Source: a bacterium
GTDB taxonomy: Bacteria > DRYD01
Assembly (NCBI GenBank): GCA_039630415.1
Contig: JBCNVB010000026.1
Span: 1-64,000 of the forward strand
Length of the DNA: 64,000 nucleotides
Direction: 5' to 3'
Of the stretch, positions 9,001 through 12,000 are shown one piece after another. Position 1 is the stretch's first letter. Each line of letters opens with the position of its first letter. The position numbers were made by a program.

Positions 9001-12000
9001 AGCAAATAAGCTAAACTACAGGGTATACTTAGTATTAAACCCGGAGAGTCATGAATTTACAATAGATTACTTGTATAGGTATAAAGACTTCGTAGGTATT
9101 GGGTATGGTTCTGATTGTCCTATATTTGATTTGAACCTAAAACAAAGTATTTACAACTATATAGATGGTAATTTATGTAAGGAGACCAAGCAAAAGGTTA
9201 TAGAGTATGTCTTTGAGTGTAATCATAGGTTATTCAGAAAATCCGATTAGTATGTGTATTATAAACAGGTTGAGTAGAGAGAATGTAGAAGATTGATAAT
9301 ATGAATTGGTTTAAAAATTTACTGGCGATAGCTTCCTATACGATTGATTATGAATTTAGAAGATTTTTACCTCATACTATAGTGTTTGGGGGGTTAGTAT
9401 TTGTTGGTGCTAGTTCTACGTTTAATTTCTTCGGTTTAAAGTTTCAGGAAAGAGTTTTTTATGATCTATCTTTGACTTTGATTGGAGTACTTTTGGTAGT
9501 TCTTGCTTTAAGTTTAGGAGTTTCTAATATTTCGCAAGAAATTGAAAGAAGAATAGTATATACTTTCATAAGTAAACCTCTATCTAGGGACCAGTACTTT
9601 ATTGGTAAATTTTTAGGTACCTCTTTCTTCTTATTTTTTGCTTATGTTTTGTTTAGCTTGGAGGTATTTTTTATCGTATATTTTTATACTTCTAAGATGA
9701 AATTCATTGTATTTGCCGCTTTGGGGTTACAGTTAGTAAAGTCCATGATTTTATTAGCCTTTACCATGCTTTTGTCTATTTTTGTTACAGCTCCTATTAC
9801 CATAGCATCAACATTACTCTTTTATGTATTTTGTGAAGCATCGGTACTTTACGTATCTACCATTTCTGAAGGTATCTTTAGAGATATACTTTTATTTATC
9901 AAACTGCTTTTGCCTTATTTTGATTATTTGAATATAAATCAGGGGATTATTTTTGAAAAAGGAGCACCAGTAAATATTTGGTATGTTTTCTTTGCTTTTA
10001 TTTATGGAGTATCCTATCTTATTTTCTTTTTAAGCTTGTCTACTTTGCTATTTAGTAAGAAAGAGTTATGAGTTATGTAGAAAAACTCTTTGATAATCAA
10101 ACTACGAGCGTACATATAAAAGAAGATAGCTTTGTTTTGAAGAAAGTTGGTTTACCTGGGAAATGGAAACTGATTCAAGAAGATAAAGTTTTCTCTTCAG
10201 AAGAAATAAAAGCAATTATTCAGGAGATCTTGGAAGCAACAGATTCTATAGTTGAAATAGACAGATCTAACACGAAAGTAGTTCAAATGGGTAAGTATAG
10301 GATAGTAATTGTATTTCCTCCTATAGCTGATAAAACAGAAATAACTATAGTAAAACCTATCAAAAAACTTTCGCTTGAAGATTATTGGAATGAATTTGAC
10401 GAGTATGTTAGGTATGAGCTAATGGATAGGATAGATGGTAAGATTGAGGGATTATTGATAGCTGGTGCACCGGGTCAAGGGAAAACTACTTTTGCACAAG
10501 CACTAACTGAATACTTCGCTAACAACAAAAAAATAGTCAAAACTTTAGAATCACCCCGCGATTTGCACGTCGAAGCAAACATAACCCAATATTCCAAAAA
10601 CTATGCAAGCATATCTGAAATATATGATATACTTCTTTTATCAAGACCAGACTATGTCATATTTGATGAGATGAGAAATGATGAGGATTTTAATCTGTAT
10701 GTAGATTTGAGATTAGCTGGTGTAGGAATGGTTGGTGTAGTTCATTCTACCTCACCCTTCGCTGCCATACAAAGATTCATTCACAGAATAGAACTAGGTA
10801 TTATACCCTCTGTTATCGATACTGTAATATTCCTAGACAAAGGTAAAATATCAAAGATTTTAACACTAAGTATATTAGTCAAGGTTCCGGAAGGTATGGC
10901 GGACCCAGGACTTGCTAGACCAGTAGTTGAAGTAAAAAACTTCATAGATAACACACTAGAATATGAAATCTACACTTTCGGCGAACAAACAATAATCGTA
11001 CCCATAGCTCAAAATAATCAAAAAATCTTAAAAGAAATTACTGAGAAAATAGAACAAAATGTAAAAACTATCCTTGGAAACAAAAAATTCAAAGTAGAAG
11101 TTATTAACTCAAGATATGCTATAATATGGGTATCTGAAAAGCATAAAAGAGACATTATAGGTAGAAAGGGAAGAATTATAAAGGATCTCGAGCAGATCCT
11201 CAACATGAGACTTGAAGTTAAAACTTTTGAAAATTAGGTATACTGGCTTAAGCGGAATAAAATTGGTAGGTGGTGAAGTATGAGATTATTTAAATTTTTT
11301 ATGTTGCTAATAGTTTTATTTATTCTTGGATGTGGTATCGGTTTTGGTATGTTTATGCTACTTGGTAGTGATCAACAAAAGGGAGATTCAGTGGCAGTAA
11401 TAAGGCTTCAAGGTATAATAATAAATCAAGAAGGTAAAGAAGGAACCATAGATAGCAATCAAGTAATATCGGTTTTAGATAGGCTTCATAAGGATAAGAG
11501 ATATAAGGGTATAATTTTGGTTGTGGATAGTCCTGGTGGAATGGCAGCACCTAGTTTAGAAATATGTGAAAAAATTCGTCGTATTAAAAAAGACAAACCT
11601 GTTGTAGTTTATATTGAAAGTTTAGGTGCTTCTGGAGCTTATTACTTTGCTTCAGCAGCTAATTACATAATCTCAAATCCAAAATCCTTAGTAGGAAGCA
11701 TCGGAGTTATTATCTCTGTACCACAAGTACACAAAGCAATGGATAAAATTGGAATACAGATAATAAATATCAAAAGTGGATACTACAAAGATGCTTTTAG
11801 CCCATTTAAACCACTTCAAAAAGATCAACAACAATATCTACAAAACCTAGTTATGGAATACTATTATCAATTTGTTTCTGACATATCAAAAAATAGAAAT
11901 CTAAAGACTCAACAACAGATAAAAGAGTTGTATGAGATATCAGATGGTAGGGTATTTTCTGCTAGAACTGCATTGAAATACGGCTTAATAGACCAAATAG

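What a model noticed while it worked through the whole genome (the two positions that open the first line are those of the whole stretch)
10068..11237. RuvAB replaced by an archaeal PINA branch-migration ATPase
No genome of the phylum has RuvA or RuvB, yet RuvC and RecG are kept and every genome carries a homologue (ATPase plus KH-type C-terminus, no PIN domain) of PINA, the archaeal Holliday-junction migration ATPase described as archaea-specific. This looks like a bacterial lineage that swapped its junction motor for the archaeal one by an old transfer.
Evidence so far: RuvA model over the cut in 0 of 11. RuvB_N gives only weak hits (best E 4e-9 to 4e-6) in ORFs that in G000 are FtsH, MoxR, HslU and DnaX (12). 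g01001 is 49-53% identical to Sulfolobus PINA over residues 128-502 (11) and is in 11 of 11, at 56-79% identity in the 10 relatives (13). Beyond the lineage's own ~390-aa cluster, the named homologues among the best 120 are archaeal PINc ATPases (31); of 74 GTDB loci, those outside the lineage's 55-78% cluster bear archaeal titles (32). RuvC is g00484 (C8), RecG g00031. PINA biology per PMC6061704 (passages, 28); RuvAB near-universal per PMC1193525 (94).
(Added by a program. Inside this text positions count along the whole contig: contig position 1 is position 1 of the stretch shown here. "Call 12" and the like, gene names such as g00115 and contig names such as C1 are that model's own, and its searches are not shown. 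The text may have been shortened before it was handed on; [...] marks where a part breaks off. The agent that wrote the report below was given it as the finding of a first reader that could run no searches.)

Follow-up and report, generated by a model that had tools for sequence, protein, structure and literature searches.

The report
Archaeal DNA motor in RuvAB-less bacteria
A small group of bacteria has lost the standard motor that slides DNA crossover junctions and carries a motor gene borrowed from archaea, but other bacteria carry the same borrowed gene while keeping the standard motor, so a simple swap is not shown.

Summary
The observation mostly holds. Window 10068-11237 encodes an intact 389-aa orthologue of archaeal PINA (PRK13764 over cut-off). 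It is in 11 of 11 phylum genomes. RuvA and RuvB are in 0 of 11, RuvC in 9, RecG in 11.

Two premises fail. One genome (G010) keeps the PIN domain, so PIN was lost after arrival. And PINA is not confined to this lineage: 25 of 201 genomes of a class holding SR1/Absconditabacterales carry a PIN-less PINA, probably from a separate transfer (AU p=0.033). All 25 keep RuvB and 23 keep RuvA. PINA therefore does not predict RuvAB loss.

The lineage also has RecG, RadA/Sms and an overlooked full-length Hel308/Hjm-like helicase (9 of 11), whose nearest outside relatives are Aquificota; Aquifex is a known RuvAB-less bacterium.

Best reading: an old archaeon-to-bacterium transfer of an accessory fork/junction ATPase, one of four candidate motors (0.5). 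Direct replacement is possible (0.25), as is an RNA role (0.2). I found no paper reporting bacterial PINA. New variant of a known kind.

The parts
10068..11237 (+). PIN-less PINA orthologue (PRK13764/COG1855 family ATPase with C-terminal KH domain), 389 aa
   Evidence: AlphaFold2 pLDDT 94; Foldseek top hit 5f4h, E 4e-44, rmsd 2.8 A over 318 columns
10464..10487 (+). Walker A, GAPGQGKT (residues 133-140; K139 aligns with SisPINA position 261). Walker B D200-E201, R78 (aligns with SisPINA R206) and H226 are also intact
   Evidence: K139, D200, E201, R78 and H226 invariant in 68 of 68 aligned homologues
11007..11225 (+). C-terminal KH domain (about residues 314-386) with an intact GxxG loop (IGRKG)
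   Evidence: Pfam KH_2 E 0.0023, below the gathering cut-off; helix and strand order in the model; motif in 8 of 8 lineage rows
9301..10071 (+). ABC-2-type permease-like membrane gene; overlaps the PINA start by 4 bases; conserved upstream neighbour in family f1; no known link to DNA repair
   Evidence: directly upstream in 8 of 8 f1 loci with upstream sequence
11280..12173 (+). Peptidase S49 (SppA-like), downstream neighbour in genus g1 only
57113..58477 (+). RadA/Sms, a second candidate branch-migration motor in the same window (not linked to the PINA gene)
   Evidence: TIGR00416 E 4.8e-99, 332 bits against cut-off 403, model positions 1-428 of 454; 5 of 5 lineage genomes tested

Best explanation
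The gene is a true PINA orthologue taken from an archaeon (probably DPANN) before the sampled families split, with PIN lost later in family f1. It most likely still works as a ring ATPase that binds branched DNA through its KH end and helps remodel stalled forks or junctions. It is an accessory factor, not a one-for-one stand-in for RuvAB. Junction migration before RuvC cleavage is shared among RecG, RadA/Sms, a Hel308/Hjm-like helicase and PINA, and this redundancy allowed RuvAB to go. Shown: orthology, intact motifs, distribution, absence of RuvAB, presence of the other motors. Inferred: hexamer, DNA substrate, division of labour, donor.
For: Intact ATPase motifs and fold. Kept in 11 of 11. 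Codon use typical of the genome: CAI-like percentile 0.27, GC3 percentile 0.61 among 815 ORFs. The lineage's 8 rows form one clade (97/80) inside a 99/99 clade with Nanobdellota, Woesearchaeota and a Thermoproteales row. PINA coexists with RuvABC and RecG in a second bacterial group, which fits an accessory role. RecG 11 of 11, RadA 5 of 5, Hel308-like helicase 9 of 11. SisPINA unwinds junctions, forks and flaps and works with Hjm (PMC6061704). Aquifex lacks RuvAB but has RecG (PMC1193525 passages), and COG1855 was listed as archaea-only in a 2007 survey (PMC1852104 passages), so RuvAB can apparently be lost without PINA.
Against: No activity was measured. The PIN domain is gone in 9 genomes, Hjc is absent (the only Hjc-model hit in G000 is a UPF0102 protein), and the lysine-rich tail that helps SisPINA bind Hjm is not conserved (alignment; PMC6061704). 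Neighbours in f1 are unrelated to repair. The Hel308-like helicase was not found in 3 of 3 PINA-bearing genomes of the second group, so the two do not travel together. The Sulfolobus deletion has no DNA-damage phenotype.
Confidence: 0.5

Rival explanations
1. Direct replacement: PINA is the main junction motor working with RuvC, and its arrival allowed the loss of RuvAB. The SR1-type genomes, whose RuvABC are strongly diverged, would be an earlier stage of the same process.
For: Perfect co-occurrence within the phylum: PINA 11 of 11, RuvA and RuvB 0 of 11. Both traits are rare: PINA in 0 of 290 other bacteria and 0 of 401 sampled Patescibacteria-type genomes; RuvB in 195 of 201 of the comparison class. 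SisPINA drives junction migration in vitro as a hexamer (PMC6061704). In family f381, RuvB is below cut-off in 22 of 22 (E 1e-60 to 1e-80 against about 1e-108 to 1e-141 in most others; 257-278 bits when read by code 25) and RuvA and RuvC also score low.
Against: Eleven genomes are one evolutionary event, not eleven. In the only other bacterial case PINA coexists with RuvAB; 5 of the 25 (families f376, f385, f392) have an ordinary-scoring RuvB, and the diverged f381 RuvB keeps Walker A, Walker B and the arginine-finger motif (motifs recalled). No linkage to ruvC, and no RuvA or RuvC hit among 400 ORFs flanking 44 PINA loci of the second group. Three other motors are present.
Confidence: 0.25
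2. PINA-family proteins act mainly on RNA or ribonucleoprotein (KH binds RNA; PIN is an RNase fold). The bacterial copies do that job, and the loss of RuvAB is unrelated.
For: The GxxG loop is intact in 8 of 8 lineage rows, 10 of 12 rows of the second group and 46 of 68 family members, whereas the one characterised protein, SisPINA, lacks it (PMC6061704 passage). The deletion phenotype is cold sensitivity without mitomycin sensitivity; cold sensitivity is typical of RNA-remodelling mutants (recalled). It coexists with a full RuvABC/RecG set elsewhere.
Against: The only biochemistry is on DNA. The pina deletion worsens with loss of Hjc or Hje, and pina and hjc have adjacent locus tags in S. acidocaldarius (Saci_1557, Saci_1558). 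The KH domain of SisPINA binds ssDNA. G010 has a family-4 uracil-DNA glycosylase directly upstream (one genome only).
Confidence: 0.2
3. It is a pilus or secretion ATPase of the PilT/VirB11 type, as automatic names (T2SS/T4P/T4SS ATPase) suggest.
For: Pfam T2SSE over cut-off. Fold kinship with CpaF, PilF and VirB11. A membrane gene lies upstream, and pilin-like genes lie near 7 of 24 SR1-type loci.
Against: PilT/VirB11 models score at most 44 bits against 512 for PRK13764. The genome has several separate PilB/PilT-type ATPases at 24-29% identity. The KH domain points to nucleic acid.
Confidence: 0.04
4. Artefact: archaeal contamination in the bins, or RuvAB missed because the bins are incomplete.
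For: Bins are 71-90% complete. G000 lacks some genes its relatives have.
Against: The gene sits among bacterial genes on a 79-kb contig with conserved synteny. Its tree separates the genera and families as the genome taxonomy does. RecG 11 of 11 and RuvC 9 of 11 show normal recovery. Chance of 11 misses is about 1e-9 if independent.
Confidence: 0.01

Closest known systems
PINA of Sulfolobus islandicus (PDB 5F4H, 5YWW; PRK13764, COG1855, NF053733)
   Same: ATPase core and C-terminal KH domain over residues 128-502; Walker A/B and R206 position kept; model superimposes at 2.8 A.
   Different: Bacterial host; no PIN domain in family f1; GxxG loop present; no lysine-rich tail; no Hjc partner, resolvase is RuvC; 432 bits against the NF053733 cut-off of 800.
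PIN-less PINA of SR1/Absconditabacterales and related families (found here; named only 'ATPase, T2SS/T4P/T4SS family' by sources)
   Same: Bacterial, PIN-less, PRK13764 over cut-off, mostly GxxG-bearing.
   Different: Separate clade (96/93; joint clade rejected at p=0.033); longer C-terminus; hosts keep RuvABC and RecG.
RuvAB
   Same: Proposed job only: ATP-driven junction migration by hexameric rings (PMC6061704 model).
   Different: Not homologous at orthologue level; PINA is PilT/VirB11-like. No RuvA-like junction-loading subunit is known here.
Aquifex aeolicus RuvAB-less recombination system (PMC1193525)
   Same: RecA present, RuvAB absent, RecG kept. Aquificota also carry the closest outside relatives of this lineage's Hel308-like helicase.
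   Different: No PINA reported for Aquifex (inferred from PMC1852104 Table 2; not searched here). This lineage keeps RuvC.
Hel308/Hjm (for the G000 C12 helicase)
   Same: Family profile matches Pyrococcus Hjm and Archaeoglobus and Sulfolobus Hel308 in one stretch across most of the length, E about 1e-63; Foldseek top hit Hel308 2va8.
   Different: About 20% identity; 115 bits against a cut-off of 1200; polymerase-theta helicase and Brr2-type helicases score similarly; orthology not shown.

Membership tests
PINA / PRK13764 / COG1855 | Score over the PRK13764 curated cut-off | tested here: met
   512 bits against 340
PINA / PRK13764 / COG1855 | Score over the NF053733 (HJ-migration ATPase PINA) cut-off | tested here: not met
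   432 against 800; the PIN-bearing relative P0003 also reaches only 445
PINA / PRK13764 / COG1855 | N-terminal PIN domain | tested here: not met
   Absent in this protein and 8 relatives, no stand-alone copy in G000; present in G010
PINA / PRK13764 / COG1855 | PilT-type ATPase core with Walker A, Walker B and the R206 position | tested here: met
PINA / PRK13764 / COG1855 | C-terminal KH domain | tested here: met
   Pfam KH_2 E 0.0023 (below cut-off), aligned to SisPINA 434-502, GxxG loop, model
PINA / PRK13764 / COG1855 | Hexameric ring | not tested
   Six copies exceed the complex tool's size limit
PINA / PRK13764 / COG1855 | ATP-dependent junction migration | not testable with these tools
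   Needs biochemistry
PINA / PRK13764 / COG1855 | Partner Hjc in the genome | tested here: not met
   G000 only: single hit is UPF0102
PINA / PRK13764 / COG1855 | Partner Hjm/Hel308 in the genome | tested here: inconclusive
   A Hel308-like helicase in 9 of 11, far below the family cut-off; binding not tested
Non-orthologous displacement of RuvAB | RuvA and RuvB absent where PINA is present, in this lineage | tested here: met
Non-orthologous displacement of RuvAB | Complementary pattern across independent lineages | tested here: not met
   RuvB in 25 of 25 and RuvA in 23 of 25 PINA-bearing genomes of the second group
Non-orthologous displacement of RuvAB | No other candidate for the job | tested here: not met
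   RecG, RadA/Sms, Hel308-like helicase
PilT/VirB11 secretion ATPases | Score over a PilT, VirB11, TrbB or GspE model cut-off | tested here: not met
   At most 44 bits against cut-offs of 250 or more

The most novel reading that the evidence does not exclude
This hot-spring-type bacterial lineage runs a hybrid recombination end-game: archaeal-type PINA, aided by a Hel308/Hjm-like helicase, moves junctions for a bacterial RuvC in place of RuvAB. SR1/Absconditabacterales, with an independently acquired PINA and fast-diverging RuvABC, are part-way along the same road.
Probability: 0.25. Interest if true: 0.8.

Novelty: new variant of a known kind. Interest (0 to 1): 0.55.

Why it matters
PINA/COG1855 has been listed as a signature gene of archaea (PMC1852104 Table 2; PMC6061704). 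Two bacterial groups carry it, apparently from separate transfers, and both mostly without PIN. That shows PIN is dispensable and gives natural truncations and probably mesophilic versions for biochemistry. Whether PINA is the archaeal counterpart of RuvAB is an open question (PMC8775617), and these genomes make it testable in a bacterial setting with RuvC. The lineage also adds a free-standing phylum-level case to the short list of RecA-positive bacteria without RuvAB, and points to a Hel308-like helicase shared with Aquificota as a second candidate.

Tried and rejected
Complex prediction of PINA with the lineage's RuvC gave no verdict (score 0.00, controls not folded); it is not evidence either way. 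No RNA holder was listed for the locus, so expression was not examined. Cluster-member look-up for 10 PIN-less proteins could not be made, and earlier scan findings were not open. An even sample of 401 Patescibacteria-type genomes held no PINA and showed no SR1-type genome among the 150 listed EF-G rows of 338 (best 63%); the class-level search then found them. Metagenome contigs could not be searched as genomes. A split or stand-alone PIN gene in G000 was rejected. The apparent frameshift in G010 is an assembly gap. The Hjc hit is UPF0102. No Aquificota genome was reached: G030 and G015 did not match the helicase, and a viral scan gave one weak hit, so RuvAB and PINA status across Aquificota is untested. 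The donor is unresolved: the quick tree grouped the lineage with Nanobdellota plus four unlabelled rows (96), but the careful tree gave only 85/84 for a pair whose relatives are named Micrarchaeota and 52/82 for the larger group; its bootstrap had not settled. Paper searches that found no report of bacterial PINA or of RuvAB status in these groups: (judged from listings). Supplements: none readable for PMC8406219; 4 files of PMC8080830 had no Ruv terms and its main supplement was too large; bioRxiv supplements were closed. Gene tables there could bear on SR1 gene content and on novelty. The original PINA structure paper (reference 39 of PMC6061704) was not read.

Full report
Observation. Window 10068-11237(+) encodes 389 aa. 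It matches Sulfolobus PINA residues 128-502 at E 3.6e-110, with the next solved relatives (CpaF, VirB11, PilT) at E 3e-6 or worse. It passes the PRK13764 cut-off (512 against 340) but not NF053733 (432 against 800). The AlphaFold2 model (pLDDT 94) superimposes on 5f4h at 2.8 A. Walker A, Walker B, the R206 position and H226 are intact and invariant in 68 homologues. The C-terminus is a KH domain with a GxxG loop. Close relatives at 78% identity bear the title Candidatus Calescibacterium, which gives the lineage.

Distribution in the phylum. PINA is in 11 of 11 genomes. RuvB and RuvA are over cut-off in 0 of 11, while both models passed in 10 of 14 controls. Profiles built from fetched RuvA and RuvB found no remnant in G000. 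RuvC is in 9 of 11 with its acidic catalytic positions invariant (positions recalled), RecG in 11 of 11, RecA in 5 of 5 tested. The absence is real as far as bins of 71-90% completeness can show. RuvAB was reported missing from only two RecA-positive genomes of 117, Wigglesworthia and Aquifex, both with RecG (PMC1193525, passages).

First correction: PIN. Nine genomes have an in-frame stop within 15 codons upstream of the match; G001 is cut by its contig end. G010, the only member of the second family, has a PIN domain (E 1.7e-13) and is split only by a 10-base gap. G000 has no stand-alone copy. So a full-length PINA arrived and family f1 lost PIN later. PIN-less forms also occur in three archaeal loci, two titled Heimdallarchaeota.

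Second correction: other bacteria. The unseeded search of 1.84 billion representatives returned many PIN-less proteins. Four of 151 had W in place of conserved G at 4-10 positions, the mark of TGA read as glycine. Relatives of one are named SR1/Absconditabacterales, and 23 of 24 such metagenome loci gained coding density under code 25. PRK13764 was absent from 290 of 290 other bacteria and 401 of 401 genomes around a small pilin-rich genome taken as Patescibacteria (marker recalled). In the class nearest to SR1 it passed the cut-off in 25 of 201: f381 20 of 22, f376 3 of 4, f385 1 of 2, f392 1 of 2. The 8 f381 proteins compared are 52-100% identical to SR1-named proteins; calling the class Gracilibacteria is my inference.

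The decisive test. In the same 201 genomes RuvB matched in 195, including all 25 with PINA. RuvA matched in 23 of the 25 (15 over cut-off, 38 handles given). RuvC and RecG were in 5 of 5 tested. PINA thus coexists with RuvABC in bacteria. The other five PINA-bearing genomes have ordinary RuvB.

Origin. In an 80-row tree (LG+G4, 316 columns; rows hand-picked from about 250 available) the lineage's 8 rows form one clade (97/80), the second group another (96/93 with two unlabelled proteins), both inside a 99/99 clade with Nanobdellota, Woesearchaeota and a Thermoproteales row. A joint bacterial clade is rejected at p=0.033, moderate evidence for two transfers; the groups were named after a first FastTree run. 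The donor is unresolved; the nearest rows have relatives named Micrarchaeota or are Nanobdellota. Codon use is ordinary for the genome, as expected of an old gene.

Context and other motors. The gene follows an ABC-2 permease-like gene in 8 of 8 f1 loci and is not near ruvC. In G010 a uracil-DNA glycosylase lies upstream. In SR1-type loci a pyruvate-kinase-like gene follows in 22 of 24. The lineage has RadA/Sms (5 of 5 tested; window 57113-58477), which can drive branch migration (PMC4786428, abstract). It also has a 743-aa helicase (G000 C12:62585-64816) in 9 of 11 genomes. Its family profile matches archaeal Hjm/Hel308 over most of the length, its model's top fold match is Hel308, and its named outside relatives are mostly Aquificota at about 30%. 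Hjm is a PINA partner in Sulfolobus (PMC6061704) and was called archaea-only in 2009 (PMC2636818, passages). The helicase was not found in 3 of 3 PINA-bearing genomes of the second group.

Mechanism. SisPINA is a hexamer that migrates junctions, unwinds forks and flaps, and binds Hjc and Hjm through KH (PMC6061704: abstract, introduction, discussion and passages). In S. acidocaldarius the deletion is viable, cold-sensitive, worse without Hjc or Hje, and not mitomycin-sensitive (PMC8775617, parts 1-3 of 5). I conclude that the bacterial protein most likely acts on branched DNA as an accessory motor, one of four candidates in a lineage that dropped RuvAB (0.5). Direct replacement keeps 0.25, because both traits are rare and coincide, but this is one event and the only replicate goes the other way. 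An RNA role keeps 0.2, given the intact GxxG loop and the cold-sensitive phenotype.

Verdict. It is a member of PRK13764/COG1855, a PIN-less variant; it works like PINA by inference only; it fails the cross-lineage test for displacement of RuvAB. COG1855 is listed as specific to all archaea (PMC1852104, passages), and eight searches found no report of bacterial copies (subscription journals are not covered). New variant of a known kind; interest 0.55.

Noticed in passing
G000 C12:62585-64816 (L245:2586-4814): Full-length Hel308/Hjm-like SF2 helicase in 9 of 11 phylum genomes, forming a family with Aquificota proteins. A candidate motor shared by two groups with RuvAB loss; worth its own study.
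   Followed up: partly
L203-L222 (G702, G711, G718, G727 and f381 genomes): Second bacterial PINA clade, PIN-less, in 25 of 201 genomes of a class holding SR1/Absconditabacterales; coexists with RuvABC and RecG.
   Followed up: yes
L223-L227, L239-L242: RuvA, RuvB and RuvC of family f381 are much more diverged than in sister families, while RecG and EF-G look less so; no formal rate test.
   Followed up: partly
G783 C1:169016-169900 and 171909-173087: In one f381 genome ruvB lies about 2 kb from the PINA gene; not so in the 4 others checked.
   Followed up: partly
L096:1184-1792: Family-4 uracil-DNA glycosylase directly upstream of the PIN-bearing PINA in G010.
   Followed up: partly
L122:3211-4737 and 21 other SR1-type loci: Pyruvate-kinase-like gene directly downstream of PINA in 22 of 24 loci; it looks diverged, catalytic residues not checked.
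   Followed up: partly
L065, L073, L090: PIN-less PINA in three archaeal loci, two titled Heimdallarchaeota: PIN loss recurs in archaea.
   Followed up: no
P0008, P0009, P0010, P0018, P0030, P0041: Archaeal-type PINA proteins of 695-1323 aa whose match is broken next to Walker A, as expected of inteins (inferred, not tested).
   Followed up: no
P0099: 881-aa PINA fused to a tRNA nucleotidyltransferase domain; a single representative, could be an assembly artefact, but would fit an RNA role.
   Followed up: no
G000 C14:700-4041 (L246): Reverse gyrase over cut-off, a marker of high growth temperature.
   Followed up: partly
window 14097-14948: TsaE domain carried on a 283-aa protein with an unexplained N-terminal extension of about 140 aa; also in a relative.
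   Followed up: no
window 8132-9250: 372-aa ORF with no Pfam or NCBIfam match at E 0.01.
   Followed up: no
L203, L204, L215: In family f376 PINA is divergently placed from a gene whose N-terminus looks like FtsA (recalled, not tested).
   Followed up: no
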